The notes beneath the pieces are model-generated. The model did not search any database, was not told the DNA's origin, and saw only the letters and a program-made list of their open reading frames with translations. A DNA stretch of 44,856 nucleotides from a bacterium (GTDB taxonomy: Bacteria; Calditrichota; Calditrichia; RBG-13-44-9; J042): positions 1 through 44,856 of the forward strand of contig WFTQ01000051.1 in assembly GCA_015485355.1 (NCBI GenBank), given 5' to 3'. Made by a program: the position numbers and the translations under genes. Shown in pieces: positions 11,626 through 37,820 of this stretch (position 1 is the stretch's first letter; each line of letters begins with the position of its first letter).

Positions 11626-12336
11626 ATGCCTCAGCGAAGATATGCACCGGAATGCGAGACCTGTGGAACACGCCTGAAATCCATATTCAAATATCTGGCT
11701 TTCGAAGACCTCCAGCGGTTGTCCCGCTTGCGTGGATGCCGGTTTTATCGTAAAGGGGAGACCATTTTTTTCGAGGGAGACTTTCCACTGGGCATATTCT
11801 GCATGCACAAAGGCAAGGCCAAAATCTACAAACTGGGAAACAACGGTAAGGAACAAATCGTGCGTCTGGTGGGAGACGGCGATTTTTTTGGATTCCGATC
11901 TCTGATCAGTGGTTCCCAGTACAAAGCCTCGGCCGAAGCACTGGAGGACAGTGCCGTGTGTTTTATTCCTAAGGAAGATTTTTTTAATGTATTGCAGCGG
12001 AATATGGAATTTTCCTTACAATTGATGAAGGTATTGTGCCAGGAACTGGAGACGGCGGAGCGCTACATGCTGGACCTGGCTCAGAAATCGGTTCGGGAAC
12101 GCCTGGCCACGGTGCTTTTATTGCTGAAAAAAAAGTATGGCACCAATTCCGATAAACAGACCCTGAATATTCATCTTACCCGCGAAGACCTGGCCAACAT
12201 AGTGGGCACCGCTACGGAAACCGTCATCCGCTTGCTCAGCGAATTCAAGGAGCAAAACATCATTGCCCTGGAAGGCAAAAAAATCAAGCTGCTGGATGTG
12301 GACGAGCTGGTTCGCATCGGCAATGTGTATGAATAA
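11626..12336 (+). CDS. Crp/Fnr-family transcriptional regulator
   Basis: 236 aa with a cNMP-binding-like beta-roll plus a C-terminal HTH (TREDLANIVGTATETVIRLL). An N-terminal CxxC is present. Confidence 0.85.
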   Translation: MPQRRYAPECETCGTRLKSIFKYLAFEDLQRLSRLRGCRFYRKGETIFFEGDFPLGIFCMHKGKAKIYKLGNNGKEQIVRLVGDGDFFGFRSLISGSQYKASAEALEDSAVCFIPKEDFFNVLQRNMEFSLQLMKVLCQELETAERYMLDLAQKSVRERLATVLLLLKKKYGTNSDKQTLNIHLTREDLANIVGTATETVIRLLSEFKEQNIIALEGKKIKLLDVDELVRIGNVYE

Positions 12337-12458
12337 GCCCCTCCCGGGTAAATAGTATCCCTTCCCCCGGATTACAGCCGTTAGCGGCAGGCCGGAATCG
12401 AGTTTCCGGGTGTCATATCGTTGAACCTCCAAAATATGTCAAATGTCATCATTTTTGC

Positions 12459-12470
12459 TGATTAATATCA
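12459..12470. promoter_or_regulatory. Candidate Crp/Fnr-type operator TGAT-TAAT-ATCA (TTGAT-N4-ATCAA-like) upstream of the second crp/fnr paralog
   Basis: The half-sites TGAT/ATCA with a 4-nt spacer are seen directly. It lies about 65 nt upstream of the 12536 start. A direct repeat TGTCA-AA-TGTCA sits just upstream. Confidence 0.3.
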
Positions 12471-12535
12471 TTGCATTTAAGAGTTCCTTGTTTGGAAATT
12501 TGGGTTGGTATTCGTAAACGAAGCCCAGATGCCGG

Positions 12536-13234
12536 ATGGACAGTCAACTTCAGAGTAATCCCCCAGCCCCTTCGTTGCGTACCGTGCCGTTGTTTGCCAC
12601 CTGCCAGGCCGAGGATGTTGTTCGGCTGGAGCAGCGGGCCCGGTATCGGAAATTTAAAGCCGGCAGTATCATCGTTCAGGAAGGGCAGAGCGCAGAGGAG
12701 ATTTTTTGCATTTGCCGGGGCAAGGTTAAGTTGATGAAGGGAAATTTCCGTCGGCGGGAACGCATCGTGGCCTTTGCCGGCGGGGGCGAGATAATCGGTT
12801 TGCGGTGTTTATTGGGATTCCAGAAATTCGATAAAACCGCCGTAGCCCTGGAACAAACCGAAGGGTATTTTGTAAGCCGGTCCGAGCTGCTTCGCCTTTT
12901 CCGAAAGCATCCTGATATGATTATCAAAATAATGAAGCAGATTATCAATCATCTGGAAGAAATCGATGACCGTATTGTGGAAGTGGCTTCCAAAAAAATG
13001 GCCCAACGTCTGGCCGAAACGATTCTGTATTTAAAAACCACTTTCGGTGAAGATGATCAAGGAAATTTGAACATCCGGGTGGGCCGCAAGGACCTGGCCA
13101 ATTTTATTCATTCCAATCGGTATACCGTGTATCGCTTACTGGCGGAATTCCGCAACAAGGGCATCATCGAGTTCGACCGCAAATGCCTGAAGATTCTTGA
13201 TGAGGACAAACTCCGCGAAATTGCCCGGAAATGA
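12536..13234 (+). CDS. Crp/Fnr-family transcriptional regulator (second, tandem paralog)
   Basis: 232 aa with an effector-domain beta-roll plus HTH (RKDLANFIHSNRYTVYRLL). Confidence 0.85.
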   Translation: MDSQLQSNPPAPSLRTVPLFATCQAEDVVRLEQRARYRKFKAGSIIVQEGQSAEEIFCICRGKVKLMKGNFRRRERIVAFAGGGEIIGLRCLLGFQKFDKTAVALEQTEGYFVSRSELLRLFRKHPDMIIKIMKQIINHLEEIDDRIVEVASKKMAQRLAETILYLKTTFGEDDQGNLNIRVGRKDLANFIHSNRYTVYRLLAEFRNKGIIEFDRKCLKILDEDKLREIARK

Positions 13235-13442: not shown

Positions 13443-14627
13443 ATGAATGGAATTGGTTGGAAAGGAATTCCTGTTGTGCTTTTGCTGGTGTGTTTGGGGC
13501 AGGCGCAGGTGCACCTTCAGGGCAGTTATCGGTCTGCCGTTTATTTCTGGCAACCGGGGGGGAGCGGGCGTTATAGCGATGTTTACCAGGGATTCCGTTT
13601 CCGCCTGCGCAGCGAGGCGATGCCCCGGTGGAGCGCCCAGGGTTTTTTTCGGGTGGCGCTGCTGGGAACGGATAAGCGACTGCAGGATCGGTTTTATCAT
13701 TTGTATGTTCAATGGCGGCACAGGACCGGGAAATGGCAATTGCGTGTAGGGCGGCAGTTTCTTTTTGCCGGAGTGTGGAACGGCACCTACGATGGCGCCG
13801 TGCTGTCGGCGCGGGCGTCTCGGTCGGTGCAGCTACGCCTGCTGGTTGGGGTGCGGGCTCCCTACGAGCGGGGAATGCGTTGGAATGCTCCGGAACAGGG
13901 AGTCTCCATCGGAGCCTTTGCGACCTGGGATGCTTCCTCCAAGGTGCGTTTCACGTTCAGCGGGGTGCATCAACAAAAAAAGGGCATGGTGCTCTGGCAG
14001 TTGCTGGGTCTGGGCATCAGTGGCCGGCTGCGGACGGGACTGCACGTCACGACCAATCTGGAATACAATGTTCCCACCCACTCCGTACAACTCTTCCGCC
14101 AGTTAGTGACGTATGATCGCGGTGCCTGGCAACTGGGGTTGGAATTCAACCACCAAACCCCTAGGATCCTGGAAAATTCTTACTTTCGGATATTCAAAAT
14201 CAGGGGATATCGGCAAATTCGAAGCAGCGTGGGCTATCGGTTACCGCAAGCCCTGATTTCCCTCCAGTACCTTTACACCTGGTACAGGCGGGATCGAAAC
14301 CATCAGGTGATTGTGGGTGTTAATCGGCGTTGGGGCAATGTGGGATTGGTGTTTCAGGATGGATTTGGCGGCAACAATGTGGGCATTTATGGAGATGTGC
14401 AATATACTCTGGGGGGAAAAGTAACCCTGCGGGCTCACAGCAGTTATTACAATTATCAGCGCTATGCGATGGAAATGGGGGAAGAGGCCGCCGCCTACGC
14501 TGTGGGGATGACCTACCGGCCCGTTTCCGGGCTGCGGCTGGAGGGCGATCTTCAGCAGAGTATCAATTCTTTTTATATAAACGACTTACGAATCCTGCTT
14601 CGGTTGATGTATCGCTTTCGCTGGTAA
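13443..14627 (+). CDS. Outer-membrane beta-barrel protein, porin component of a porin-cytochrome-like conduit (OmbB/MtrB-like role)
   Basis: About 395 aa. Has a signal peptide (MNGIGWKGIPVVLLLVCLGQAQV), alternating amphipathic beta-strand patterning rich in Y/W/R, and a C-terminal aromatic residue (…YRFRW). It sits immediately 5' of two multiheme cytochromes. The track ORF starts at GTG 13401. Confidence 0.6.
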   Translation: MNGIGWKGIPVVLLLVCLGQAQVHLQGSYRSAVYFWQPGGSGRYSDVYQGFRFRLRSEAMPRWSAQGFFRVALLGTDKRLQDRFYHLYVQWRHRTGKWQLRVGRQFLFAGVWNGTYDGAVLSARASRSVQLRLLVGVRAPYERGMRWNAPEQGVSIGAFATWDASSKVRFTFSGVHQQKKGMVLWQLLGLGISGRLRTGLHVTTNLEYNVPTHSVQLFRQLVTYDRGAWQLGLEFNHQTPRILENSYFRIFKIRGYRQIRSSVGYRLPQALISLQYLYTWYRRDRNHQVIVGVNRRWGNVGLVFQDGFGGNNVGIYGDVQYTLGGKVTLRAHSSYYNYQRYAMEMGEEAAAYAVGMTYRPVSGLRLEGDLQQSINSFYINDLRILLRLMYRFRW

Positions 14628-14657
14628 CGGAGCAACCCATTTGGAGAGATTCGCATC

Positions 14658-15572
14658 GTGAACGACCACCTGTTTCGGCTTCTGATGATTGCCTTGCTTG
14701 GAGGGGGAACCGCTGTCTGGGGTCAAGTCGATCCCGGCGCGGGCGGCCTCATTTTCTCTCATAAAACCCATGTGGTGACCAACGGGATGGCATGTGAGGA
14801 TTGCCACGCCCTGGCACTGAACAGTCTGTCCGGTCGGGATGATCTTTTTCCGGACATGGACGCCTGTGGTGAATGCCACGACGTGGAGGCCGAAGAAGAG
14901 TGCGAAATTTGTCATCGTCAACCGGACGATGTGGTGTTGATTGCCCGGGTGGATGATTACAGTCGCCTTTTTTCTCATCGAGGGCATCTGGCAGCGGGAC
15001 TGGAGTGCCCGGCCTGTCACCCAACGGTAAGCAGAAAGGATCGGGTGACGGCGTACGATTTGCCGGATATGGGCGGATGTATGGGTTGCCATCAGCGGCG
15101 CAACGTGGAGACGGATTGCCGAAGCTGTCACTCACCCGAAGAATCTTTAAGACCGTTGAGCCACGGGCCGGATTTTGAGCATCGCCATGCCGACCTGGCC
15201 CGGCTGCAGAACCGCTCCCTGACCGCAGGAAAAGATTGTGGGCTGTGCCACCGGGTCAGCGAATGCCAGCGTTGCCACGAAGGCGACAATCTGGATCGGT
15301 TAACCCATCCGTTGAACTACGCCTTTACCCACGCCTTAGAGGCTCAGGGCCGTCAGAAGGATTGTACCGGATGTCACGCCGACCGCCTGTTTTGTGTGGA
15401 GTGCCATCGCGATCAAAACGTCCTGCCGCACAATCATACAGCGGGATGGACCAATCGGATTCCCAATGATGGGGGACGGCACCGTTGGGAGGCCCAAAGG
15501 GACCTGGATGCCTGCATGGCCTGTCATGAATCCAATGCCGAGGAAATTTGCCGGCCCTGCCACAAAAGATAA
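14658..15572 (+). CDS. Dodecaheme c-type cytochrome (12 CxxCH in 304 aa), secreted
   Basis: Has a signal peptide. The 12 canonical CxxCH motifs were counted directly (CEDCH, CGECH, CEICH, CPACH, CMGCH, CRSCH, CGLCH, CQRCH, CTGCH, CVECH, CMACH, CRPCH). Confidence 0.88.
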   Translation: MNDHLFRLLMIALLGGGTAVWGQVDPGAGGLIFSHKTHVVTNGMACEDCHALALNSLSGRDDLFPDMDACGECHDVEAEEECEICHRQPDDVVLIARVDDYSRLFSHRGHLAAGLECPACHPTVSRKDRVTAYDLPDMGGCMGCHQRRNVETDCRSCHSPEESLRPLSHGPDFEHRHADLARLQNRSLTAGKDCGLCHRVSECQRCHEGDNLDRLTHPLNYAFTHALEAQGRQKDCTGCHADRLFCVECHRDQNVLPHNHTAGWTNRIPNDGGRHRWEAQRDLDACMACHESNAEEICRPCHKR

Positions 15573-15587
15573 GGAGCATCGCCGATC

Positions 15588-16616
15588 ATGCGTGGATCCC
15601 TGCTCTTTCCGGGAATTTTCATTATCGCCTTGTTGGGGTGGTCCTGCAGTGACCGACGGGAACCCTTGGCGGTGCAAACCCACCCTGCGGGATGGATGGA
15701 TCCCGCTTCTCCAAATTTTCATGGGAAGGTATTAGTGTTCGATAGCAGTCTGACCTTGAGGAGTTGTCGGAGTTGCCATGGGCGGGATTATCGAGGGGGT
15801 GACAGCAAGGTTTCCTGTTACCAGAGTGGGTGTCATCGGGGTTATCCCCATCCCGAAGGATTCGCCGTCACCACCCGTTCCCGGTTTCATGCGTTCTACA
15901 TTGCGGAAGAACTGTTGTGGAACATTCGTGCCTGTCAACGCTGCCATGGGATGGATTACGCGGGGAATGGGGTGGCCCGGAAGAACTGCCGACAGTGCCA
16001 CACCGCAGCCGAAGGTCCGGAAGCCTGCAATACCTGTCATGGGAAGTTTGAGGCGGCCGTACCGCCCCTATGGAATGCGGCTCCTCCCGAGGATTTGGGC
16101 GGTCACGTACTATCCACGGCTCTCGGCGTGGGTGCCCATCAGCATCATCTTACCGATACCACGCTGACAACCTATGTTCGTCGGGATTGCCGTCCCTGCC
16201 ACATACAGCCTCGGACGTTGGTTTCTGTCGGACATATCGATAATGTCCCTCTTCCTGCCGAAGTGGTTTTTAATGCCTTTGCTTCCGATTCCGGACGGAT
16301 TCAACCTCTGTGGAATCGGGAAGAAGCGACCTGCTCCAACATCTACTGCCATGGAGCGTTTGTTTTTTATCGGGACAGCAGCCGGTACAGCGCCTTTTAC
16401 GTCGATTCGATCATCCAGGGCAATAATCCGTCGCTCCGATGGAACCGGCTGGAAGAAGGGCCGCGGGATTGCGGCACCTGCCACGATATGCCTCCTCGGG
16501 GACATCTACCCGTGAGTGCGACCGGTTGTGTGAACTGCCATCCGCGCGTCGTGGATGCGGACCTCAATATCGTGGGCAGGGACCTTCACATCAACGGGAA
16601 GGCGGATGCCTTTTGA
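15588..16616 (+). CDS. Multiheme c-type cytochrome lipoprotein (7 CxxCH plus 2 CX4CH-like motifs)
   Basis: 342 aa. The N-terminus ...ALLGWSCS is lipobox-like. Canonical motifs are CRSCH, CQRCH, CRQCH, CNTCH, CRPCH, CGTCH and CVNCH, plus CYQSGCH and CSNIYCH. Confidence 0.85.
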   Translation: MRGSLLFPGIFIIALLGWSCSDRREPLAVQTHPAGWMDPASPNFHGKVLVFDSSLTLRSCRSCHGRDYRGGDSKVSCYQSGCHRGYPHPEGFAVTTRSRFHAFYIAEELLWNIRACQRCHGMDYAGNGVARKNCRQCHTAAEGPEACNTCHGKFEAAVPPLWNAAPPEDLGGHVLSTALGVGAHQHHLTDTTLTTYVRRDCRPCHIQPRTLVSVGHIDNVPLPAEVVFNAFASDSGRIQPLWNREEATCSNIYCHGAFVFYRDSSRYSAFYVDSIIQGNNPSLRWNRLEEGPRDCGTCHDMPPRGHLPVSATGCVNCHPRVVDADLNIVGRDLHINGKADAF

Positions 16617-16894
16617 TCGGCCGATCACCCTAAAGTTTCCCGGTCTTTCGGCGGGGGGACCGGTTCCGGAAATGACAAAAATCATGTTAAATCCTGATGA
16701 TCATCATTGTGAATAGCCTCGAAAGTTATATTTTTCTCAAAGTTTAAAATTTGATGAATGTAAATGGAGGCCGGGAATGGTGAATGCCCGAAAGGGCAGG
16801 AGTGCGGGGCGGTTTTGTGAAAAACATCATTTGTTGGCGGCCAAAGAAATCCAAACCGGGATGAAGGTGGGGCAAGGTTCCCCGTAACCGCATC

Positions 16895-16960
16895 GATAAA
16901 CCCCTGAAAGCCGATGGGGTTAACCCGCAAGGGCCGAGGGGTTTGGTTTTTCGCATTTTC
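16895..16960 (+). terminator. Candidate terminator/hairpin cluster after the cytochrome operon (AACCCC...GGGGTT and CCC-GCAA-GGG stems followed by a T-rich run)
   Basis: Seen in the sequence. Coordinates are approximate. Confidence 0.3.
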
Positions 16961-17033
16961 TTTGTATTATTCGGGTGAATGCAAGTTTGAGAGCGAATAA
17001 ATATCGGGTTGAATTAAAACGACCAATAGAACC

Positions 17034-17474
17034 ATGGAACTGAATCGTCGCAAGTTCACGAATATGCTGATTGGTGGCGGGTTACTGGGATGGTTGGCCA
17101 GTGTGCTGTATCCTTTATTCACCTATCTGATTCCCCCGAGGGTGGAAGAACAATCGTTGAATTCGGTCAAGGCCGGTAAAGTGGATGACTTCCCGCCCAA
17201 CAGTGGAAAAATCATCAAATTCGGACGAAAACCCGTATTGTTGATCCGAACCGAAACCGGAGATTTTCGGGCCTTTTCCGCCACCTGCACTCACCTGGAC
17301 TGTATTGTTCAGTATCGGGAAGACACCAAGCATATTTGGTGTGCCTGTCACAACGGGATGTTTGACCTGACGGGTAAAAATATCGCCGGACCGCCCCCGC
17401 GGCCGTTGATGCCCTACGGGGTACGCGTCCAAAAAAATGAAATTATCATAGAGAAACCAACCAATCTGGGTTAG
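17034..17474 (+). CDS. Rieske [2Fe-2S] subunit of a cytochrome b6f/bc-type complex
   Basis: 146 aa. Tat-like RRKF signal/anchor, with Rieske boxes CTHLDC and CACHNG. Confidence 0.9.
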   Translation: MELNRRKFTNMLIGGGLLGWLASVLYPLFTYLIPPRVEEQSLNSVKAGKVDDFPPNSGKIIKFGRKPVLLIRTETGDFRAFSATCTHLDCIVQYREDTKHIWCACHNGMFDLTGKNIAGPPPRPLMPYGVRVQKNEIIIEKPTNLG

Positions 17475-17476
17475 CG

Positions 17477-18559
17477 ATGAAGAGCAATATGGTTAAAAAA
17501 GTGTACAACTGGCTGGATGAACGTTACGATTTAACCCCCTTGATTGAGTTTGCCAGGCACAAGAAGGTGCCCGTGCATGAGCATACCATCTGGTATTATA
17601 TGGGTGGAGTTACCCTGTTTTTATTCTTGATTCAGATTTTTACCGGGATTCTGTTGTCGATGTATTATCAGCCCGGTCCCGATAGTTCTTATGAGAGTTT
17701 ACGATTTCTGCTGACCAAAGTGCGGTTTGGCTGGCTGATTCGTTCCATCCATAGCTGGTCTGCCAATTTAATGATATTTTTCGCCTTTGTGCACATGTTC
17801 AGTACATTTTTTACCCGGGCTTACAAAAAGCCGCGGGAGTTGACCTGGGTTACGGGGTTCATTCTGCTGAGTTTGTCCATGGCCTTCGGGTTCAGCGGAT
17901 ATTTATTACCCTGGAACGAATTGGCCTTTTTCGCCACCAAGGTGGGTACCGAAATCGTTGGAGCGGTGCCGGTTGTGGGGCCCATTATCATGAAGGTGTT
18001 GCGGGGCGGTTCCGATGTCACCGGCGCAACCATCTACCGGTTTTACGCCATTCACATCACTCTGTTGCCGGCCTTGTTCATGCTGGTGCTGGCTCTCCAT
18101 CTGGTGTTTGTGCAGAAGCATGGCATGAGCGAACCCGAACACCTGGCGAATTTGCCGGAATCCCGGAAAAAATATATCCCCTTCTTTCCCAATTTTCTGT
18201 TACGAGACCTCATCCTCTGGTTGATTGTATTCGATATTCTGGTATTTCTGGCGGTGTATTATCCCTGGGAGCTGGGTTTAAAAGCCGATCCGTTTGCACC
18301 GGCCCCCGCCGGTATTCGGCCCGAATGGTATTTTATGTTCATGTTCCAAACCTTGAAGCTGCTACCCGGCCATATTCTGTTCATCGAAGGCGAAGTGTTG
18401 GGCATCCTGATATTCATGGTTGGAGGATTGCTCTGGATGCTGGTGCCCTTCTGGGCTCTAAAAGGACGACCGGATCAACGCATTCAGCCCATGGAATTCA
18501 TTGGTGTGGTGGTTCTGATCTACATTGGTGTAATGACGATTTTGGGTTATGCATTGTAA
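17477..18559 (+). CDS. Cytochrome b, b6-type with fused subunit-IV-like C-terminus
   Basis: 360 aa with the PRELTW motif. Heme-ligand spacings are H-x13-H (helix B) and H-x14-H (helix D), which is b6-type. The start abuts the Rieske stop. Confidence 0.92.
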   Translation: MKSNMVKKVYNWLDERYDLTPLIEFARHKKVPVHEHTIWYYMGGVTLFLFLIQIFTGILLSMYYQPGPDSSYESLRFLLTKVRFGWLIRSIHSWSANLMIFFAFVHMFSTFFTRAYKKPRELTWVTGFILLSLSMAFGFSGYLLPWNELAFFATKVGTEIVGAVPVVGPIIMKVLRGGSDVTGATIYRFYAIHITLLPALFMLVLALHLVFVQKHGMSEPEHLANLPESRKKYIPFFPNFLLRDLILWLIVFDILVFLAVYYPWELGLKADPFAPAPAGIRPEWYFMFMFQTLKLLPGHILFIEGEVLGILIFMVGGLLWMLVPFWALKGRPDQRIQPMEFIGVVVLIYIGVMTILGYAL

Positions 18560-18578
18560 AAATTTGCAGAGGACCATT

Positions 18579-19880
18579 ATGAAAATCGGGTATACAAGCA
18601 TTTTCGCGGGGCTTTTCCTGGGGATGGGGGTTTTATTGGCTCAACCACAGGACGATGAAAAAACAAGCTACCTGCAGCAACTGGTGGAAGTGGATCAGTG
18701 TGTGGCCTGCCACATCGAAGAGGAAGCCCTACCGGAAGGTTTACATGAGAACGACATTCATTTGCGCGAGGGACTATCCTGTGCGGGATGCCATGGTGGA
18801 GATCCCACCTCCGACGATATGGATATCGCCATGGATCCCGCCCGTGGTTATATCGGTATACCGGACAAGCAAGAAGTGCCCTCGTTTTGCGGAAAATGCC
18901 ATTCGGATATTCGTTTCATGCGCCGGTTTCGACCGCAGGTGGAGACCGATCAGGAAGTCCAATACTATACCAGTCGTCACGGACGCCTGCTGAAGGCGGG
19001 CGATACCAAGGTGGCGGTTTGTACCGATTGCCATACCAGTCACGCGGTCTTCCCGGCATCCGATCCCCGGTCATCGGTGTACCCCACCAATGTTCCCGAA
19101 ACCTGTAAGCGCTGCCATAGCGATTCGGATTATATGGCGGAATATAAAATTCCCACCGATCAGTACGAAAAGTTTGCCGAAAGCGTTCACGGAGTGGCCC
19201 TTTTAAAGAAAAAGGATGTGGGGTCTCCCGCCTGTAACGATTGCCATGGAAATCACGGCGCCTTACCGCCGGGAGTCACTTCCATCGGGCAGGTCTGCGG
19301 CAATTGCCACATCAACAATTTACAGTATTTTCAAAAGACTAAAATGGCCGAAGAATTTAAGAAAATGGACCTGCACGATTGCATCGAATGCCATGGGTAC
19401 CATGCCGTACCACCAACCAACGATGAAATGGTTGGCGTGGGGGAACAGTCCACCTGTATCGACTGCCACGATGAAGGCGACGAGGGGTATAAAGCCGCGG
19501 TGGAAATTCGAGCGATGTTGCGGAATTTAACCACGGCGATTGATTCGGCCAATACCCTGAAAAAACAGATACAGATCATCGGGATGGATGATCTGGACAT
19601 CGAGTATCTATTGAAAGATGCGCACCAACAATTGATTCACGCGCGCACGGTGATTCATACGTTCGATCCCAAGCAGGTGGAAGAAAAAACCAAAACCGGC
19701 CTGGACAGGGCCAAAGAGGCCATACAGTTGGCATTGGAAGAGATTGAGGAATATCATCGCCGGCGTAAGGGATTCCTTTTTGCCACTTTATTTACCACGC
19801 TGTTGATTATCGGATTGTTCATTAAATTGCGGCAAATCGAATCCGAGCAAAAGGAGGATGCCCATCGGCGGGAACCATAA
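18579..19880 (+). CDS. Nonaheme c-type cytochrome with a C-terminal membrane anchor (cytochrome c subunit of the bc-type complex)
   Basis: Signal peptide starting MKIGYTSIFAGL, with a GAGGA RBS. There are 9 CxxCH motifs, and a C-terminal TM helix (FLFATLFTTLLIIGLFI) followed by a basic tail. The track ORF begins at 18549. Confidence 0.85.
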   Translation: MKIGYTSIFAGLFLGMGVLLAQPQDDEKTSYLQQLVEVDQCVACHIEEEALPEGLHENDIHLREGLSCAGCHGGDPTSDDMDIAMDPARGYIGIPDKQEVPSFCGKCHSDIRFMRRFRPQVETDQEVQYYTSRHGRLLKAGDTKVAVCTDCHTSHAVFPASDPRSSVYPTNVPETCKRCHSDSDYMAEYKIPTDQYEKFAESVHGVALLKKKDVGSPACNDCHGNHGALPPGVTSIGQVCGNCHINNLQYFQKTKMAEEFKKMDLHDCIECHGYHAVPPTNDEMVGVGEQSTCIDCHDEGDEGYKAAVEIRAMLRNLTTAIDSANTLKKQIQIIGMDDLDIEYLLKDAHQQLIHARTVIHTFDPKQVEEKTKTGLDRAKEAIQLALEEIEEYHRRRKGFLFATLFTTLLIIGLFIKLRQIESEQKEDAHRREP

Positions 19881-20169: not shown

Positions 20170-20937
20170 CTATGTTGGATTACCGGCATTGCCTTTGTGC
20201 CAACTGGACAGGAAGGGAGCGAACAGATCGATGGGGACGGGAAAGATTGTGGTGGAGTTGTTTTCCGAGGCGACCTCGGTGAGGGTTTGCAGAAAGCGCA
20301 GCTGAATGGCTACGGGATATTTGCTGATAATTTCGGCGGCCTGTTGCAACTTTTCGGCGGCCTGATATTCCCCCTCGGCATGGATGATTTTGGAGCGTCG
20401 TTCGCGCTCGGCTTCCGCCTGCCGGGCCATGGCCCGCTTCATCTCGATGGGTAAATCGATGTGCTTGATCTCTACCAGCGAGACCTTCACCCCCCAGGGA
20501 TCGGAATGTTTATCGATGATCTCCTGAAGCTCCTTGTTGATTTTTTCTCGCTGTGCCAGCAATTCATCCAGCTCCACCTGTCCCACAATGGAGCGCAGGG
20601 TGGTTTGAGACAGCTGCGAGGTGGCAAACAGGTAGTTCTCTACTTCCACGACCGCTTTTTCGGGATTGATCACCCGAAAATATACCACGGCGTTGACCTG
20701 AACAGACACATTGTCCCGAGTGATCACATCCTGTGGAGGGACATCCATTACCACAGTGCGCAGGCTAACTTTGATCATTCGATCGATAAAAGGAATGAGT
20801 AAAATCAAGCCCGGGCCTTTGGCCCCGATTAAACGACCCAATCGGAAGATAACACCTCGTTCGTATTCCCGTAACACGCGAATGGCGCTGGCTAATAATG
20901 CCAGTAGCAAAATTAAAATCGTTACAAATGCTGGCAT
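20170..20937 (-). CDS. SPFH/band-7 (stomatin/paraslipin-like) protein
   Basis: 255 aa with an N-terminal TM segment. SPFH domain signature: [30 protein letters not shown]. Confidence 0.9.
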
Positions 20938-21223
20938 GACCTCCTCCAGAGTTTTGCTGATCGCTCAAATTAATTCCGCTTTTGTGCTTACCCTTTTATT
21001 GGATTCTGATACGCCGGGTTCCCCCCATGGAACTCCACCGAAGATTCGGGCTTCCTTTTGCGGGCCGATTGGGGTCCACCATGCCGCCCCTTAATCGGCC
21101 GCTCGTTCGTTCTCGATGGTGGCCTCTTCATACGGGTTTATCACCGGTTCCCATAAAACGACCTCGGTTCTCATGGCGGTATTCCGTGCAACGACCGCCC
21201 CTGGGTGCAAGCGGAGTGTTTGA

Positions 21224-21493
21224 TTAATTCTCCTTTTTTTCACGGGTGCGGGGTTTTTTTGCCTTCAGCTCCCGATAGCGTTTTTTGGCCCGCTCGATGG
21301 TGGCCCGACGATATGCTTCGTCCTCATGATAGCGTTTTCTTGCCAGCTGTTTGGTTTTTTCACGGTAGTCCGGGTCCTGCTGATAGCGTTGTTTCATCTT
21401 GAGAAGGATTTTTTCCCGATTGCGTTCGTAGTAGGTCTTTTTGGCTTTCTGAGTAGCCATGTGGGTTTTGCTCTTTTTTATTCTGGAACCCAT
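21224..21493 (-). CDS. Small highly basic protein with three K-R-Y repeats (hypothetical)
   Basis: 89 aa, about 45% K/R/E. It has a repeating (K/Q)RY..D..YR(E/R) unit and is sandwiched between nfeD and the SPFH gene. Confidence 0.4.
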   Translation of the reverse strand: MGSRIKKSKTHMATQKAKKTYYERNREKILLKMKQRYQQDPDYREKTKQLARKRYHEDEAYRRATIERAKKRYRELKAKKPRTREKKEN

Positions 21494-21505
21494 TTATTTT
21501 GATCA

Positions 21506-22801
21506 TCAGGGCGTCTCCTCATCGGTTTCTTCGACCCGTTGCACCCGCAAGTGGAGCCCATCGACCCGGGTAACCCGAACGGCATCCCCCTTGCGGATGG
21601 AATCGTTGCTTTTGGCCTTCCAGATCTCGCCGTGAACCATTACCTGACCCGACCCTTTGCGGAAATTCTCGATGGCCTCACCGAACTCACCCACCAGGCC
21701 TTCGCTTCCGGTGGTGGGTTTTTTCCTTTGCGCTCGGATGCCCATCCCAATGGCAAAAATGAAAAACAGGGCCGTGGTTACCGTGGCTGCGGCGATGACT
21801 TTCCAGGATACCCGTAAAAAAGGTAAAGGCGACTCGAATAACATCAGGGAACCGAGAACCAGGGACACAATGCCTCCTATCGTTAAGAGTCCGTAACTGG
21901 GAATTTTGATTTCCAGCAAAAACAATATGACCGCCAAAATGATGAGCAGCAAACCGGCATAATTGATGGGAAGGGTTTGCAAGGCATAAAAGGCCAGGAT
22001 CAGGGAGATGGTTCCGATGACGCCGGGAAAAATCGATCCGGGATTATAGAGTTCAAAAAGGATACCGTAGATGCCGATAAGCATCAGGATGTAGGCCACA
22101 TTCGGATCGCTGATCACATTGAGCACGCGGTAGCGGAAGGACATTTCGATGCGCTGAATCCGTGCCTTTCGGGTATGCAGGGTTATCTTCCCCCGGCTGG
22201 TTTCCACCTCTTGGCCGTCCATTAGAACCAGCAGGCTATCCAGGGTGGGGGCGATGAAATCGATGACGTTGAGCTCCAGGGCTTCCGTTTCGGTGATGGA
22301 GGCGCTTTCCCGTACCGCCTTTTCGGCCCATTCGGCATTGCGACCTCGCTTTTCGGCAATGCTTTTGATGAAAGCCACGGCATCGTTGGTAACCTTTTCC
22401 ATCATGGTTTGGCTGGTGTCGGCTCCCATCCCAAAGGCCACCGGATGGGCGGCCCCGATATTGGTGCCCGGTGCCATAGCCGCCACATGGGCCGCCAGGG
22501 TAATAAAAACGCCGGCCGACCCCGCCCGAGAACCCGAAGGCGCTACATACACCACAATGGGAATGGCAGAGGTTAACATGTCCTTGACGATCATGCGCAT
22601 CGATTTCATTAACCCACCCGGCGTATCCAGCAGAATCACCAACACCTGGGCATTGGCTTCCTCCGCCCTTTCAATGTTGTTCTGGATAAAATTCTGAGCT
22701 ACCGGATTGATGACCCCGTCAATCTGAATGACGTGCACCTGCTCCTGCGCATAGATCGTGCCGGTGAAAAACAGCCATAAAGGAAAAAGTTTCTGTATCA
22801 T
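21506..22801 (-). CDS. NfeD-family membrane-bound ClpP-class serine protease (stomatin operon partner)
   Basis: 431 aa with an N-terminal S49/ClpP-like domain (LDTPGG, SAGVFITLAA), central TM helices and a C-terminal OB-fold. Confidence 0.85.
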   Translation of the reverse strand: MIQKLFPLWLFFTGTIYAQEQVHVIQIDGVINPVAQNFIQNNIERAEEANAQVLVILLDTPGGLMKSMRMIVKDMLTSAIPIVVYVAPSGSRAGSAGVFITLAAHVAAMAPGTNIGAAHPVAFGMGADTSQTMMEKVTNDAVAFIKSIAEKRGRNAEWAEKAVRESASITETEALELNVIDFIAPTLDSLLVLMDGQEVETSRGKITLHTRKARIQRIEMSFRYRVLNVISDPNVAYILMLIGIYGILFELYNPGSIFPGVIGTISLILAFYALQTLPINYAGLLLIILAVILFLLEIKIPSYGLLTIGGIVSLVLGSLMLFESPLPFLRVSWKVIAAATVTTALFFIFAIGMGIRAQRKKPTTGSEGLVGEFGEAIENFRKGSGQVMVHGEIWKAKSNDSIRKGDAVRVTRVDGLHLRVQRVEETDEETP

Positions 22802-25892: not shown

Positions 25893-26379
25893 TGGACGGT
25901 TCTCCCATTTTGAATGGTTAATGGACGATGATGAAGCACTCCCCAGCGCTCGGGCGGAGACGAAGCCGGCCTTCCGGATCGGCTGTTGCCCGTTGATGTG
26001 CTGCGCTGTCAGGAATCGCCATGGAAAAACTTCCCATTGTGTAGAGTCAGCGATTCGAAATTTAAGACAAAAAGTAATAATTTTTTTTCGGGAATTGAAG
26101 AACTAAGTAAATTTACCGCTGTTTTCCGGGGTGCCGGGAAGACCGGGTCGTCTGCACGGTGTGCTCCTGGAAGAGAAAACCCCGGTTATTGAATTTCAAA
26201 TTGATTTTAAACATTTGAAAAAATAACTTGCGGTCTCTTGACACCCGAACCCATGATCTTTGAATCCAACGATGGAAACACGAGAGGCGGCGGCCGATGG
26301 TGAACGGCCGAGTGATGGTGAAGCCCCCCGGGACCGGGTAAATAAGCAAGGTGGTGATTTGGTATGGTGGGAGGTAGTC

Positions 26380-27798
26380 ATGCGTATTTCGGAGAGGCCT
26401 TTCCGATGGTGGTGTTTGATGGTTCTGTTTTTGGGTATGGGAAGTCTCCGGGCGGAAACTACCCGTGTTATTGCCCTCAGCTGGCGGGACGTCGTCGGCA
26501 AGACCCGCAGCCACAACCTGACCCTGCAGATTGCTTATCAAGACTATCGTTTTCAAAGGATGGAGGAGTGGAAGGCGTTCAGTACCTTTCTACCTCAAGT
26601 CAGCTATCAGGGTGTGGGAACCCGCAACATCGAATTGCCCGAATTTGTTTTCCAAATAAATGGTTTAACCCAGCGGGTTCGAGTGGGTACTCGATATAAC
26701 GTGTTGCACACCTTTCAGCTGAATTGGCCGTTGTTTACGGGCGGGAAGCGTTGGGCCGGCTGGCGGGCCCAGAGGGAACTGCGGAAGTCCCTGGCGGAAG
26801 AGTTGCGGGGAAAAGAAGCCACTGTAATCCTCAACGCATTGCAAAGTTATTACCAGATTTTATTGGGGGAAATGCTGGTTCGGGTCAACCGGAGTGCCCT
26901 GAAGGCGGCGCGAGTGAATTTAAACCAGGTGGAAAAATTCTACCAGGTGGGTACGGCATCGCAATTGGACTTAATGCGGGCCCGGACCCGCCTGGCCGAG
27001 CTGGAACCCGCTTTGTTGTCCGCCCGCCATCAAAAGCAACTGGCGGTGGAAAATCTAAAATTCCTCCTGAATCTTGCCCCGGAGGATTCGCTTGTGGTGC
27101 TGGATAGTTTACAGATCATGGATTTTCTGGGACCGTTGGCTCGTTGGTCCCTGGCGGATATGATGGAACTGGCCCTGCAACATCGTCCGGAATTGCAAAT
27201 GATGGCGCATACGGCTCGGGCGGCGGGAAAGCAGCGCACCATCGCCGCCTCCCGGTTTCTTCCCAGTGTGGCCCTATCGGCCTCCGTGGAGCATCAGGCA
27301 CAGGTCGATCAACTCTATCCTGCGGCCACGGATTACGTTCGGGTGAAACGGGCCCTCCTCACGGTGCAGTTTCCCCTATTCCAGGGTGCCCAGCGGCTAC
27401 TGGACTATCAACAGGCCCGAATACAGCATAAAAAAATGCAATTGCAGCTGGAGCAGTTCAAACAACAGGTGTTGCTGGAAGTGCGCCGGTCTTATTTCCG
27501 TTTTCAGGAAACTTCCCGCAAACTGGAGGGCTTGAAAGAGGCCGCCAATGAATCGGCGGAGAGCTTGCGGTTGGCCCGGTTGTATTTTCGCCAGGGGATG
27601 GCCACCCAATTGGAGGTCTTAACGGCCCAGCTCCAATATGTGCAAAGCCTGTTGAACTATCATCGGGGGGTGTTTGACTATAACATGAGTCAATTGCAGT
27701 TGTTGCAGGCCATGGGTCAATTGGATCGGATCGTCCAGGAGGCCGCCCCGGCTGGGTCGAGGTCTGTTCTGGAAGGCCGGGAGAAGTCCGTCGATTGA
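26380..27798 (+). CDS. TolC-family outer-membrane efflux protein
   Basis: Signal peptide, two OEP repeats and coiled-coil helices. The track ORF starts upstream at 26260. An RBS (GGTGGGAGG) precedes the ATG at 26380. Confidence 0.8.
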   Translation: MRISERPFRWWCLMVLFLGMGSLRAETTRVIALSWRDVVGKTRSHNLTLQIAYQDYRFQRMEEWKAFSTFLPQVSYQGVGTRNIELPEFVFQINGLTQRVRVGTRYNVLHTFQLNWPLFTGGKRWAGWRAQRELRKSLAEELRGKEATVILNALQSYYQILLGEMLVRVNRSALKAARVNLNQVEKFYQVGTASQLDLMRARTRLAELEPALLSARHQKQLAVENLKFLLNLAPEDSLVVLDSLQIMDFLGPLARWSLADMMELALQHRPELQMMAHTARAAGKQRTIAASRFLPSVALSASVEHQAQVDQLYPAATDYVRVKRALLTVQFPLFQGAQRLLDYQQARIQHKKMQLQLEQFKQQVLLEVRRSYFRFQETSRKLEGLKEAANESAESLRLARLYFRQGMATQLEVLTAQLQYVQSLLNYHRGVFDYNMSQLQLLQAMGQLDRIVQEAAPAGSRSVLEGREKSVD

Positions 27799-27841
27799 TC
27801 CGTTGGCCCAACTGTGGGTCATAGAAAAATAGGAGTGTGGG

Positions 27842-36094: not shown

Positions 36095-36096
36095 GA

Positions 36097-37326: not shown

Positions 37327-37334
37327 CGTCACCC

Positions 37335-37820
37335 TCATCGTTTTAGGTTTTCTCCGTTGGGAACATTTTCCCGATACGTTGACTGCCACCGCTGAAAAAT
37401 GATTGGCTTCAGGGTGTGACAATGAATGGGCAGACGGTATACCAGGCAATCCCGACAATTCTGTTGTCGGCATTTGGCCCCCACATCGGGCACACTCCAG
37501 CAAGGCCCCGTGACCTGGTGGTAAACCGGACAACGGCGGCAGTCCGCATCCAAACCACCCCGGTATTCCCAGCAGGGAATCAGGGCGTAAAGCTTGCGGA
37601 TTCCTTGTAAGTTCAATCCGTACACGGTTAGCATTTCTCGAATACACAGGAGACGTTCCAGGTCATGCAGCGAGTACCTGCGCTGTCCCCCAGGCGTTTT
37701 ATAGGGTAGTACCAAACCCTCCTGTTCGTACAAGCGCAAGGTTTGAACCGCTACCCGGAGCTTCTGGGCCACCGTTCCAATCGTGAAGACCGGTTCATAT
37801 TTGCCGATTTCCGGGGGCAT
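37335..37820 (-). CDS. MerR-family transcriptional regulator with a C-terminal eight-cysteine domain
   Basis: 161 aa. The MerR HTH is FTIGTVAQKLRVAVQTLRLYEQEGLV...RRYSLHDLERLL. The C-terminus carries CW, C-x2-C, CW, C-x4-C-x2-C and CH motifs. The stop abuts the SQR-like gene RBS. Confidence 0.75.
   Translation of the reverse strand: MPPEIGKYEPVFTIGTVAQKLRVAVQTLRLYEQEGLVLPYKTPGGQRRYSLHDLERLLCIREMLTVYGLNLQGIRKLYALIPCWEYRGGLDADCRRCPVYHQVTGPCWSVPDVGAKCRQQNCRDCLVYRLPIHCHTLKPIIFQRWQSTYRENVPNGENLKR

What the first reader, a model, noticed from the sequence alone, without database searches (positions are those of the whole stretch)
17034..19880. Rieske / b6-type cytochrome b complex with a membrane-anchored nonaheme cytochrome c, positioned directly downstream of the outer-membrane conduit
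The cytochrome b has b6-type heme spacing (H-x13-H and H-x14-H) and a fused subunit-IV-like tail. Instead of a mono- or diheme cytochrome c1/f, the complex carries a 9-heme cytochrome with a C-terminal TM anchor. It is separated from the porin-cytochrome cluster only by a 417-bp terminator/promoter region. This arrangement suggests a quinol-oxidising (or quinone-reducing) module that hands electrons to, or receives them from, the outer-membrane conduit through the multiheme subunit.
Basis: partly seen in the sequence, partly recalled or inferred. Interest (0 to 1): 0.7.

Follow-up and report, generated by a model that had tools for sequence, protein, structure and literature searches.

The report
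Rieske/cytochrome b complex with nonaheme subunit
This is a real three-gene respiratory operon (Rieske protein, b6-like cytochrome b, membrane-anchored nine-heme cytochrome c) beside an outer-membrane porin-cytochrome cluster; it belongs to a widespread but biochemically unstudied family, and the arrangement has already been described in Geobacter and Zixibacteria.

Summary
Three tightly packed genes encode a Tat-anchored Rieske protein (17034-17474), a 7-helix cytochrome b (17477-18559) and a nine-CxxCH cytochrome c (18579/18549-19880). The cytochrome b has H-x13-H and H-x14-H spacing, a PEWY motif and a fused subunit-IV-like tail. The cytochrome c has a signal peptide, a helical stalk and a C-terminal membrane helix.

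The nonaheme protein is not a stand-alone enzyme:
- It sits next to Rieske and cytochrome b in 71 of 73 related loci that have enough DNA.
- In at least three lineages it is fused to cytochrome b or to the subunit-IV-like part.

The family occurs in at least 501 species genomes, in Calditrichota, Ignavibacteriota, Rhodothermales, Acidobacteriota, Zixibacteria, KSB1, NC10 and others.

The upstream 394-aa protein models as a 22-strand outer-membrane barrel, followed by 12-heme and 9-heme cytochromes. The same conduit type lies beside the trio in 7 of 84 loci. In 19 further loci, mostly Acidobacteriota, an MtrA/DmsE-family decaheme with a ~750-aa putative barrel takes its place.

Functional coupling is therefore plausible but inferred. 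No terminator was found in the 417-bp gap. The concept is already published for Geobacter extHIJKL-MNOPQS and Zixibacteria RBG-1, so this is a new member of a known kind.

The parts
17034..17474 (+). Rieske [2Fe-2S] subunit, 146 aa. It has a Tat motif (NRRKF) with an uncleaved-anchor-like N-terminal helix. Box I is CTHLDC and box II is CACHNG-M-F, so the Ser and Tyr of the canonical CPCHGSxY are replaced by Gly and Phe, a pattern I know as the low-potential type.
   Evidence: Pfam PF00355 E 5.3e-14; the best NCBIfam hits are b6f PetC models, below cut-off. Motifs. Family-wide the boxes are CTHL[DE]C and CACHNGx[YF].
17477..18559 (+). Cytochrome b, 360 aa and about 7 TM helices, a fused b6 plus subunit-IV-like protein. 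It has H-x13-H (92/106), H-x14-H (193/208) and a PEWY Qo motif, with Tyr where b6 has the haem-ci cysteine.
   Evidence: The closest solved structures are cytochrome b6 chains (E 8e-59). NCBIfam cytochrome b6 scores 241 bits (cut-off 325) and ExtP 212.6 bits (cut-off 290).
18579..19880 (+). Nonaheme cytochrome c, 433 aa from ATG 18579 (an alternative upstream ATG at 18549 overlaps cytochrome b). It has a Sec-type signal peptide, a nine-CxxCH domain, a three-helix stalk (about 312-405 in 443-aa numbering) and a C-terminal TM anchor (407-428).
   Evidence: all nine CxxCH invariant in 22 homologues; gene call; AF2: C-terminal helices confident, haem domain poor.
16617..17033 (.). 417-bp intergenic region. 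About 95 nt (16667-16760) are conserved with the 89%-identity relative L001. The block includes two palindromes, TGACAAAAATCA (16673) and TGATGATCATCA (16695), that resemble Crp/Fnr boxes, followed by AT-rich promoter-like sequence.
   Evidence: Alignment and motif list. No terminator. The motif count in the window is not significant, and there is no enrichment across the family.
13443..14627 (+). Putative outer-membrane 22-strand beta-barrel, 394 aa, with a signal peptide and a C-terminal Trp. This is the 'porin' of the neighbouring conduit.
   Evidence: No Pfam or NCBIfam hit. AF2 gives pLDDT 76 and 22 strands. Foldseek PDB hits to usher and OprD-type barrels at E 1e-10, probability 1.0.
14658..15572 (+). 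12-haem cytochrome c, 304 aa, with a signal peptide and no TM helix. Presumed periplasmic or barrel-inserted component.
15588..16616 (+). 9-haem cytochrome c, 342 aa, with seven CxxCH and two CxxxxCH motifs. The signal peptide ends ...LLGWSC, so it is possibly a lipoprotein. Presumed outer-face component.
   Evidence: (Geobacter CxxxxCH/CxxCH domain TIGR01904, 35.9 bits against cut-off 27).
11626..13234 (+). Two Crp/Fnr-family regulator genes (11626-12336 and 12536-13234) directly upstream of the conduit. The first has an N-terminal CxxC. A TGATTAATATCA palindrome lies between them at 12459.
   Evidence: At least one Crp/Fnr-family gene directly upstream of the conduit is retained in L001, L086 and L090. 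A Crp-family gene also precedes the Acidobacterial clusters.

Best explanation
The three genes encode one inner-membrane Rieske/cytochrome b complex of the b6-like, 7-helix type. The usual cytochrome c1 or f is replaced by a nine-haem cytochrome held in the membrane by a C-terminal helix.

Mechanism (inferred from the family, not shown here): menaquinol is oxidised at the PEWY Qo site. One electron goes to the Tat-exported, low-potential-type Rieske cluster and on into the nonaheme wire. The other crosses haems bL and bH to the Qi site, so the step can conserve energy through a Q-cycle.

The nonaheme subunit then acts as a periplasmic distribution hub for multihaem partners. [quoted passage not shown] Two neighbouring Crp/Fnr-type regulators probably control expression.

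What is shown: gene identities, motifs, family-wide synteny, fusions, and the barrel fold of the neighbour. What is inferred: physical hand-over to the conduit, direction of flow, quinone type and regulation.
For: (1) Gene identities and motifs come.

(2) The nonaheme protein is a complex subunit.
- Of 71 related loci with all three genes, 67 have the order Rieske-cyt b-nonaheme and 4 have nonaheme-Rieske-cyt b.
- The median gaps are -4 nt and 20 nt, and 64 of 67 have a cyt b-nonaheme gap under 300 nt.
- Fusion proteins exist with consistent topology and nine CxxCH: P0199 (7-TM cyt b plus nonaheme), P0151 (subunit-IV-like 3 TM plus nonaheme) and P0228.
- The C-terminal anchor mimics that of c1 and f.

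(3) The neighbour is a conduit-like module.

(4) The linkage recurs.
- The block Crp-barrel-12haem-9haem-Rieske-cyt b-nonaheme is intact in relatives at 89% and 85% identity even though the flanks are rearranged.
- The same barrel family lies downstream of the trio in Rhodothermales (L007, L027) and KSB1 (L039, L040), and nearby in an Ignavibacteria MAG (L020).
- In 19 loci, mostly Acidobacteriota, a decahaem that passes the DmsE/MtrA family cut-off (234 against 192 bits) plus a ~750-aa signal-peptide, Cys-free protein sits upstream of the trio, in most of them directly upstream of the Rieske gene.
- Of the 43 loci with at least 15 kb of context, 39 carry further multihaem genes, with a median of 4.

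(5) There is published precedent: Geobacter (PMC2825233, PMC5877670, PMC6148476) and Zixibacteria RBG-1 (PMC3903129).
Against: - There are no expression, biochemical or structural data for any member of this family.
- Only about a third of sampled relatives have a conduit-like pair within 10 kb. The others are flanked by ImcH-like or CbcL-like quinol oxidases, NrfD/FeS modules, ACIII, monohaem cytochromes or nothing relevant.
- In four Ignavibacteriota/Bacteroidota MAG loci the nonaheme gene follows an ACIII operon. In L016 and L020 the ACIII operon separates it from cytochrome b; in L011 and L022 no Rieske/cyt b is in view. It may therefore serve more than one quinol oxidase.
- The 417-bp gap with its own conserved promoter-like block suggests a transcript separate from the conduit genes.
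- Thermodynamics (my own knowledge): a bifurcating Q-cycle on menaquinol needs an acceptor chain well above the quinone potential. This sits badly with typical low-potential bis-His multihaems and with Fe(III)-oxide reduction.
- In Geobacter the quinol oxidases I know to be required for metal or electrode respiration are ImcH, CbcL and CbcBA, not the Rieske/cyt b complex (my own knowledge, not checked here).
Confidence: 0.6

Rival explanations
1. The trio is the organism's ordinary complex III. It is a general menaquinol:cytochrome c oxidoreductase that supplies whatever periplasmic or terminal reductases are present (oxidases, nitrite or N2O reductases, other multihaems). Its position next to the porin-cytochrome cluster reflects clustering of cytochrome genes rather than a dedicated pathway.
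For: - The family is very broad and its neighbours vary. Monohaem class-I cytochromes, FixP-like cytochromes, ACIII and NrfD modules are frequent neighbours.
- Only 7 of 84 loci have the window's conduit type.
- The 417-bp gap carries a separate promoter-like block.
- The Caldithrix abyssi Rieske/cyt b was assigned to nitrate/nitrite respiration (PMC5317091).
Against: - Conduit-like pairs of two unrelated types lie within 10 kb in about 26 of 84 loci. By my rough estimate of a few percent for a handful of such clusters per genome, this is far above chance.
- The seven-gene block stays together through a flank rearrangement.
Confidence: 0.25
2. The module runs in reverse. Electrons taken up from extracellular Fe(II), minerals or a cathode enter through the outer-membrane conduit and pass along the nonaheme wire to the Rieske cluster. 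They are then pushed uphill into the menaquinone pool by a pmf-driven reverse Q-cycle, as proposed for iron oxidisers.
For: - Castelle et al. favoured Fe(II) oxidation for the equivalent MtrAB plus PetAB cluster in Zixibacteria RBG-1, because typical extracellular reductases were missing (PMC3903129).
- Kao and Hunte discuss reverse operation for some bc complexes.
- Many carriers of the family are aerobic soil Acidobacteriota, where EET reduction is less expected.
Against: - This window does encode a probable surface-exposed 9-haem cytochrome with a lipoprotein-like signal, which is typical of reducers.
- There is no Cyc2 or rusticyanin-type partner in the window.
- The low-potential-type Rieske motif fits forward menaquinol oxidation.
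Confidence: 0.12
3. The nonaheme protein is an independent membrane-tethered reductase of the octahaem nitrite/hydroxylamine reductase type, and merely shares an operon with Rieske/cyt b.
For: The best, non-significant, fold matches are octahaem nitrite reductases and HAO (E at least 0.09). The layout of a haem domain followed by long C-terminal helices is loosely similar.
Against: - All nine sites are CxxCH, with no CxxCK.
- No hit passes any enzyme-family cut-off.
- The matches come from a low-confidence model.
- Fusions to cytochrome b and to the subunit-IV-like part, and the strict synteny, argue for a structural subunit.
Confidence: 0.03

Closest known systems
Geobacter sulfurreducens extHIJKL-extMNOPQS cluster (GSU2940-GSU2930), the 'cytochrome bc cluster' of Butler et al. 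2010
   Same: - A Rieske protein (ExtO) and a b6-type cytochrome b (ExtP) are encoded with several multihaem cytochromes (12-, 10-, 5- and 2/4-haem), directly next to an outer-membrane barrel (ExtI, 21 strands, 45 kDa) that works as a conduit.
- The cluster was proposed as the quinol-oxidising link to periplasmic cytochromes.
- The window's cytochrome b scores 212.6 bits on the ExtP model.
   Different: - The score is below the ExtP cut-off of 290.
- Geobacter has a split b6 plus a separate ExtQ, whereas this one is fused.
- The Geobacter multihaems lie upstream of the Rieske gene. No homology of the nonaheme protein to them was shown, and I could not fetch ExtN or ExtM to compare.
- There is no rhodanese or selenoprotein here.
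- The barrel shows no detectable similarity to ExtI models.
Zixibacteria RBG-1 Mtr-like cluster with PetAB (Castelle et al. 2013, PMC3903129)
   Same: [quoted passage not shown] Zixibacteria loci L038 and L076 carry the same trio.
   Different: The conduit there is MtrAB-like, whereas here it is a smaller 22-strand barrel with 12-haem and 9-haem cytochromes. The published interpretation leaned towards Fe(II) oxidation. I did not check that the RBG-1 inner-membrane multihaem is this nonaheme family.
Cytochrome b6f and the 'Chlorobi/NC10/Acidobacteria' clade of Rieske/cyt b complexes (Kao and Hunte 2014, PMC4122944)
   Same: - H-x14-H spacing on helix D, a PEWY motif, subunit-IV-like helices E-G and 7 TM helices.
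- The closest solved chains are cytochrome b6.
- Relatives occur in Chloracidobacterium and NC10.
- That clade is predicted to have low to mid-potential Rieske proteins.
   Different: - The polypeptide is fused rather than split.
- Tyr replaces the haem-ci cysteine.
- There is no cytochrome f and no small Pet subunits.
- The c-type partner is a nonaheme.
- Tree placement was not computed.
Other Rieske/cyt b complexes with non-c1 cytochromes: tetrahaem in other Deltaproteobacteria, multihaem in anammox bacteria, and a cyt b-cytochrome c7 fusion in Ignavibacterium album
   Same: The c1/f position is filled by a different c-type cytochrome. C-terminal fusions of c-type domains to a 7-TM cytochrome b are known.
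   Different: Nine haems, a helical stalk and a C-terminal anchor. I found no described family, Pfam or NCBIfam model, or structure for it.
Alternative complex III (ActABCDEF)
   Same: A quinol:cytochrome c oxidoreductase with a multihaem subunit. In four Ignavibacteriota/Bacteroidota MAG loci the nonaheme gene directly follows an ACIII operon.
   Different: The window has no NrfD, molybdopterin-like or FeS subunits. The catalytic core is unrelated.

Membership tests
Rieske/cytochrome b complex superfamily (bc1/b6f) | Rieske subunit with CxH...CxxH cluster ligands plus the two disulfide cysteines, and a membrane anchor or Tat signal | tested here: met
   CTHLDC and CACH motifs, an RRKF Tat motif and an N-terminal helix. 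Pfam Rieske E 5.3e-14.
Rieske/cytochrome b complex superfamily (bc1/b6f) | Cytochrome b with two His pairs on helices B and D, and a PEWY-type Qo motif | tested here: met
   His92/106 and His193/208, with PEWY. Pfam Cytochrome_B E 1.5e-50.
Rieske/cytochrome b complex superfamily (bc1/b6f) | A membrane-anchored c-type cytochrome subunit that accepts electrons from the Rieske cluster | tested here: inconclusive
   A C-terminally anchored nonaheme is encoded in the operon, is syntenic in 71 of 73 loci and is fused to cytochrome b in some lineages. It is not homologous to c1 or f, and physical association was not measured.
Cytochrome b6f proper | Split cytochrome b6 and subunit IV polypeptides | tested here: not met
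   A single 360-aa ORF covers both parts.
Cytochrome b6f proper | Cysteine that binds haem ci near the start of helix A | tested here: not met
   The motif is YYMGG here and Y-Y-x-G-G in 63 of 70 family members. b6 has Cys at this position (my own knowledge).
Cytochrome b6f proper | Passes the NCBIfam cytochrome b6 and PetC cut-offs; has cytochrome f | tested here: not met
   241 bits against a cut-off of 325 for b6, and 65.7 against 250 for PetC. No cytochrome f.
Geobacter ExtMNOPQS (selenite/tellurite reduction operon) | Cytochrome b passes the ExtP equivalog cut-off, with a separate ExtQ membrane subunit | tested here: not met
   212.6 bits against a cut-off of 290. The subunit-IV-like part is fused.
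Geobacter ExtMNOPQS (selenite/tellurite reduction operon) | Orthology of the multihaem partners to ExtM, ExtN and ExtS | not tested
No NCBIfam Ext cytochrome model was hit.
Porin-cytochrome conduit (the neighbouring cluster 13443-16616) | An outer-membrane beta-barrel gene adjacent to a periplasmic and an extracellular multihaem cytochrome gene | tested here: met
   A 22-strand model with Foldseek hits to outer-membrane barrels at E 1e-10. A 12-haem cytochrome with a signal peptide and a 9-haem cytochrome with a lipoprotein-like signal follow. Localisation was not measured.
Porin-cytochrome conduit (the neighbouring cluster 13443-16616) | Sequence homology to MtrB/PioB, OmbB, ExtB/E or ExtI | tested here: not met
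   No Pfam or NCBIfam hit for the barrel. Only 4 relatives were found by the word-indexed search.
Chlorobi/NC10/Acidobacteria cytochrome b clade (Kao and Hunte 2014) | Placement in that clade on a cytochrome b tree | not tested
   The placement is consistent with PEWY, with the low-potential-type Rieske, and with relatives in Chloracidobacterium and NC10. No tree with reference sequences was built.

The most novel reading that the evidence does not exclude
The nonaheme-anchored Rieske/cytochrome b complex is the dedicated, energy-conserving (Q-cycle) inner-membrane entry or exit point of a widespread and so far uncharacterised extracellular electron transfer pathway in the FCB superphylum and Acidobacteriota. 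It would plug interchangeably into unrelated outer-membrane conduits: the 22-strand barrel type here and the MtrAB-like type elsewhere. If so, metal or mineral respiration (or Fe(II)/electrode oxidation) in these abundant soil, sediment and hot-spring lineages would be coupled to proton translocation at the quinol step. As I recall, the CymA, ImcH and CbcL routes of the model organisms are not coupled in this way.
Probability: 0.3. Interest if true: 0.7.

Novelty: new member of a known kind. Interest (0 to 1): 0.45.

Why it matters
How electrons leave the quinone pool is the least understood step of extracellular electron transfer outside Shewanella and Geobacter.

This locus belongs to a large family: at least 501 species genomes, and 542 clusters at 50% identity with E up to 1e-30. 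In this family a Q-cycle-type complex carries its own nine-haem wire and repeatedly sits beside outer-membrane conduits of different evolutionary origin.

If the coupling is real, it points to an energy-conserving quinol oxidase, or a reverse-running quinone reductase, for mineral respiration in Calditrichota, Ignavibacteriota, Rhodothermales, KSB1, Zixibacteria and soil Acidobacteriota. It would also give a concrete, purifiable target.

The idea itself is not new. It was proposed from genomes for Geobacter in 2010 and for Zixibacteria in 2013. The value here is the family-wide synteny and the fusion evidence, not a new concept.

Tried and rejected
- **Rfam scan of the whole window:** no match, so there is no riboswitch or known RNA in the 417-bp gap.
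- **Terminator scan and folding of the hairpin after the 9-haem gene:** no U-tract, z = -0.47. The 'terminator' is rejected.
- **Crp/Fnr-box idea:** TGAT-N4-ATCA occurs 3 times in the window against 0.99 expected, and 6 of 100 shuffles reach 3. There is no enrichment upstream of Rieske genes across 63 loci (0.89 against 0.76 per kb). I keep it only as a local lead, supported by conservation with L001.
- **Sequence search of the nonaheme against PDB:** only a weak NrfB hit at E 7e-4.
- **AF2 model of the nonaheme:** the haem domain has low confidence, with overall pLDDT 68. Foldseek against PDB gave nothing significant, with a best E of 0.09 to octahaem nitrite reductases. I do not use these matches as evidence.
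- **Profile of the ~750-aa Acidobacterial neighbour (c7) against PDB and Pfam:** no hit. NCBIfam gave only one weak hit far below cut-off (GSU2204 family, E 2.7e-4, 19.8 against 350 bits). Its barrel nature rests only on a signal peptide, zero Cys, no hydrophobic helix and a Gly/Tyr/Asn/Ser/Thr/Asp-rich composition.
- **Fusion P0144:** it keeps a signal-peptide-like helix after a poly-Lys junction, so it may be a read-through or assembly artefact. I did not count it.
- **Literature search for 'nonaheme/nine-haem' with Rieske:** no paper describes this family.
- **Melioribacter roseus genome paper:** it reports no bc complex in the type strain, so that species is not a model for this complex.


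Full report
**Observation.** The ORF map shows three co-directional genes at exactly the reported coordinates: 17034-17474 (146 aa), 17477-18559 (360 aa) and 18549-19880 (443 aa).
- Motif counting confirms nine CxxCH in the last protein, with hydrophobic segments at residues 13-31 and 407-428.
- In the cytochrome b, His92/His106 give H-x13-H and His193/His208 give H-x14-H.
- In the first protein the motifs are CTH and CACH.
- Pfam and NCBIfam identify a Rieske domain and Cytochrome_B N-terminal (E 1.5e-50). A C-terminal/petD part spans 270-356 and matches TIGR01156 subunit IV. The third protein hits only generic multihaem models.
- Gene callers on identical public contigs start the cytochrome c at ATG 18579, 19 nt after the cytochrome b stop. 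The Rieske-to-cytochrome b gap is 2 nt.
- The gap to the upstream cytochrome gene is 417 bp.

**What the proteins are.**
- The Rieske protein has an RRKF twin-arginine motif and both disulfide cysteines (CTHLDC, CACHNG).
- The Ser and Tyr of the canonical CPCHGSxY are Gly and Phe here. Across the family the pattern is CACHNGx[Y/F]. From my own knowledge of these hydrogen-bond donors, this indicates a low-potential, menaquinol-type cluster. It agrees with the prediction of Kao and Hunte for the Chlorobi/NC10/Acidobacteria clade (PMC4122944).
- The cytochrome b is closest to solved cytochrome b6 chains (E 8e-59). It is a single 7-helix polypeptide. It has Tyr where I know b6 to carry the haem-ci cysteine. 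It fails the NCBIfam cut-offs for cytochrome b6 (241 of 325) and for Geobacter ExtP (212.6 of 290).
- It is therefore b6-like, but it is not a b6f complex and not an ExtP equivalog.

**The nonaheme family.**
- A search of 5.8 billion proteins returned more than 6000 hits. The best 120 are all 399-450 aa and at least 52% identical. Those that carry names are from Calditrichota, Latescibacterota and Krumholzibacteria.
- All nine CxxCH, several extra His and Met residues, and an RR motif before the C-terminal helix are invariant in 22 diverse members.
They span Calditrichota, Ignavibacteriota, Rhodothermales, Bacteroidota, Zixibacteria, KSB1, Marinimicrobia, Acidobacteriota (Blastocatellia, Pyrinomonadaceae, Chloracidobacterium), NC10, Rokubacteria and others.
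- An exhaustive HMMER search of 1.84 billion cluster representatives gave 542 clusters at E up to 1e-30.
- There is no solved structure beyond a weak NrfB hit. No curated family matches.
- AlphaFold gives a poor haem domain, as expected without haems. It gives a confident three-helix stalk (312-344, 349-371, 374-441) whose last helix is the membrane anchor.
- The closest relative, at 89% identity, is from a Calditrichaeota MAG. Contigs identical to the window exist in GCA_027005515.1 and SRR10312498.

**Is the nonaheme part of the complex?** Yes, as far as genomics can show.
- In 71 related loci that contain all three genes, 67 have the order Rieske-cytochrome b-nonaheme. Four (NC10, Rokubacteria, Binatia and a deltaproteobacterial MAG) have nonaheme-Rieske-cytochrome b.
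- The median gaps are -4 nt and 20 nt, and 64 of 67 have a cytochrome b-nonaheme gap below 300 nt.
- The only loci with enough upstream DNA but no adjacent Rieske/cytochrome b (L011, L022) have an alternative complex III operon directly upstream instead. In L016 and L020 an ACIII operon is inserted between cytochrome b and the nonaheme gene.
- Rosetta-stone fusions exist:
  - P0199 is a 7-TM cytochrome b continuing directly into a nine-CxxCH domain.
  - P0151 is a subunit-IV-like three-helix protein fused to the nonaheme.
  - P0228 is a cytochrome b with four extra helices and then the nonaheme domain.
  - All three have a helix parity that places the haem domain in the periplasm.
- A fourth fusion, P0144, may be an artefact.

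This rejects the 'stand-alone periplasmic reductase' alternative.

**The neighbouring cluster.**
- The 394-aa protein at 13443-14627 has no family hit and only four detectable relatives.
- AlphaFold predicts a signal peptide and 22 beta strands (pLDDT 76). Foldseek matches outer-membrane barrels (ushers, OprD/Occ porins) at E 1e-10 with probability 1.0.
- It is followed by a 12-haem cytochrome with a signal peptide, and then a 9-haem cytochrome with a Geobacter-type CxxxxCH/CxxCH domain and a lipoprotein-like signal.
- This is the standard layout of a porin-cytochrome conduit, although no homology to MtrB, OmbB or ExtI could be shown.

**Does the bc module travel with conduits?** Partly.
- The block Crp-barrel-12haem-9haem-Rieske-cytochrome b-nonaheme is intact in relatives at 89% (L001) and 85% (L090) identity. 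In L090 the flanking genes have been rearranged around it.
- Homologues of the same barrel and cytochromes lie downstream of the trio in two Rhodothermales MAGs (L007, L027) and two KSB1 MAGs (L039, L040). They lie 7 kb away on the other strand in an Ignavibacteria MAG (L020). That makes 7 of 84 non-redundant loci.
- In 19 other loci, mostly Acidobacteriota, the region upstream of the trio holds a different pair, in most of them directly upstream of the Rieske gene.
  - One member is a 338-aa decahaem that passes the DmsE/MtrA family cut-off (234.3 against 192.2 bits).
  - The other is a ~750-aa protein with a signal peptide, no cysteines and no hydrophobic helix, which is probably a large barrel.
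- Three more loci have an 11-haem cytochrome next to an unannotated 535-615-aa protein. I did not test these.
- Other frequent neighbours are ImcH-like NapC/NirT heptahaems, CbcL-like multihaem-cytochrome b fusions, NrfD/FeS modules, a DUF2339 membrane protein and sigma-54 two-component systems.
- Of the 43 loci with at least 15 kb of context, 39 carry further multihaem genes, with a median of 4.

The trio is thus embedded in multihaem 'islands'. Its association with outer-membrane conduits of unrelated origin is far more frequent than chance would give, by my estimate rather than a formal test. It is not universal.

**The 417-bp gap.**
- No terminator was detected and no Rfam family matched.
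- Alignment with L001 shows a conserved block of about 95 nt (16667-16760) within otherwise diverged sequence.
- The block contains two palindromes 22 bp apart, TGACAAAAATCA and TGATGATCATCA. In L001 they are TGATAAAAATCA and TGATTATCATCA. AT-rich promoter-like sequence follows.
- Two Crp/Fnr-family regulators are encoded just upstream of the conduit. The motif count is not statistically significant, and the motif is not enriched across the family.
- The likeliest reading is that the trio has its own, possibly Crp/Fnr-controlled, promoter.

**Mechanism and rivals.**
- *Best explanation (0.6).* This is a Q-cycle-type menaquinol:multihaem-cytochrome oxidoreductase. Its anchored nonaheme subunit distributes electrons to periplasmic multihaem partners, here most likely the adjacent conduit.
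- *Rival 1 (0.25).* It is simply the general complex III, and the adjacency is incidental.
- *Rival 2 (0.12).* It runs in reverse for Fe(II) or cathode oxidation, as Castelle et al. favoured for Zixibacteria.
- *Rival 3 (0.03).* The nonaheme is an independent enzyme.
- *Main caveat (my own knowledge).* A bifurcating Qo reaction on menaquinol needs a fairly high-potential acceptor chain. That fits Mn(IV), chelated Fe(III), oxygen or nitrogen oxides better than Fe(III) oxides.

**Comparison with what is known.**
- The concept is published. Butler et al. 2010 proposed the Geobacter Rieske/cytochrome b cluster with 2-, 10-, 12- and 5-haem cytochromes as the quinol oxidation site.
- That cluster is contiguous with extHIJKL. 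ExtI is a 21-strand barrel, and extHIJKL alone supports 50% of wild-type Fe(III)-oxide reduction and 75% of Mn(IV)-oxide reduction.
- Castelle et al. 2013 described MtrAB-like genes, inner-membrane multihaems and PetAB in one Zixibacteria cluster.
- The Caldithrix abyssi paper discusses multihaems as acceptors of a c1-less Rieske/cytochrome b complex.
- I found no paper that describes the nonaheme subunit family, its distribution or its fusions.

I therefore file this as a new member of a known kind, of moderate interest. The family-wide evidence makes a long-standing hypothesis more concrete and directly testable.

Noticed in passing
window 16667-16760 and 12459-12470: A conserved block of about 95 nt lies upstream of the Rieske gene. 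It holds two Crp/Fnr-like palindromes 22 bp apart (16673 and 16695), and both are perfect TGAT-N4-ATCA in the relative L001. A third perfect palindrome sits at 12459, between the two Crp/Fnr regulator genes. The first regulator has an N-terminal CxxC.
   Followed up: partly
L016:2055-11218, L020:2317-11242, L022 and L011: In four Ignavibacteriota/Bacteroidota MAG loci a complete alternative complex III operon directly precedes the nonaheme gene. The operon comprises a pentahaem, a molybdopterin-like subunit, an FeS subunit, an NrfD subunit and class-I cytochromes. In L016 and L020 it sits between cytochrome b and the nonaheme gene. The nonaheme may serve both kinds of quinol oxidase.
   Followed up: partly
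L049:4745-8052 and 18 similar loci, mostly Acidobacteriota (for example L041, L043, L059, L067, L077): A DmsE/MtrA-family decahaem (234 bits, cut-off 192) and a ~750-aa Cys-free protein with a signal peptide lie upstream of the trio, in most of these loci directly upstream of the Rieske gene. Downstream of the trio are 8-, 9- and 4-haem cytochromes, a monohaem cytochrome, a CbcL-like protein (9 haems plus a cytochrome b561 domain) and an ImcH-like protein. This is striking for lineages regarded as aerobic soil heterotrophs.
   Followed up: partly
P0199, P0151 and P0228: These are natural fusions of cytochrome b, or of its subunit-IV-like part, to the nonaheme domain, with helix counts that keep the haem domain periplasmic. 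P0199 carries PPWY instead of PEWY.
   Followed up: yes
L089:438-11058: A 36%-identical homologue of the barrel, with two multihaem genes, lies next to an FeS/NrfD/cytochrome c3 module and response regulators carrying a GCV_H domain. The contig ends before any Rieske gene could appear.
   Followed up: no
window 20170-22801 (- strand): An SPFH/Band-7 gene and an NfeD gene converge on the nonaheme gene, with a small, very basic 89-aa ORF (21224-21493) between them. The Band-7 gene keeps its place directly after the nonaheme gene in L001 and L090.
   Followed up: no
window 26260-32073: An RND efflux operon: outer-membrane factor, membrane-fusion protein and a 1034-aa AcrB-type pump. It is also found near the trio in L009 and L028.
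   Followed up: no
window 32662-34395: A 577-aa protein with DUF3836 repeats, an RHS repeat and a T9SS C-terminal sorting domain lies in a low-GC stretch (0.43 at 33001-34000). A TGATTGAGATCA palindrome is at 33500.
   Followed up: no
window 35378-37647 (- strand) and 39773-42706: A pyridine-nucleotide-disulfide oxidoreductase is followed by a DUF1641 protein, and an ApbE flavin transferase is followed by a DUF4301 protein. These may be further redox-related genes and were not examined.
   Followed up: no
L002:6481-8280 and L010:1608-6048: In Calditrichaceae the trio is flanked by other genes instead of the barrel cluster. These are a 599-aa MtrC-like 9-haem cytochrome, an ImcH-like heptahaem, a 923-aa 19-haem protein with a cytochrome b561 domain, and a DUF2339 membrane protein. 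DUF2339 recurs in 23 of 84 loci.
   Followed up: partly
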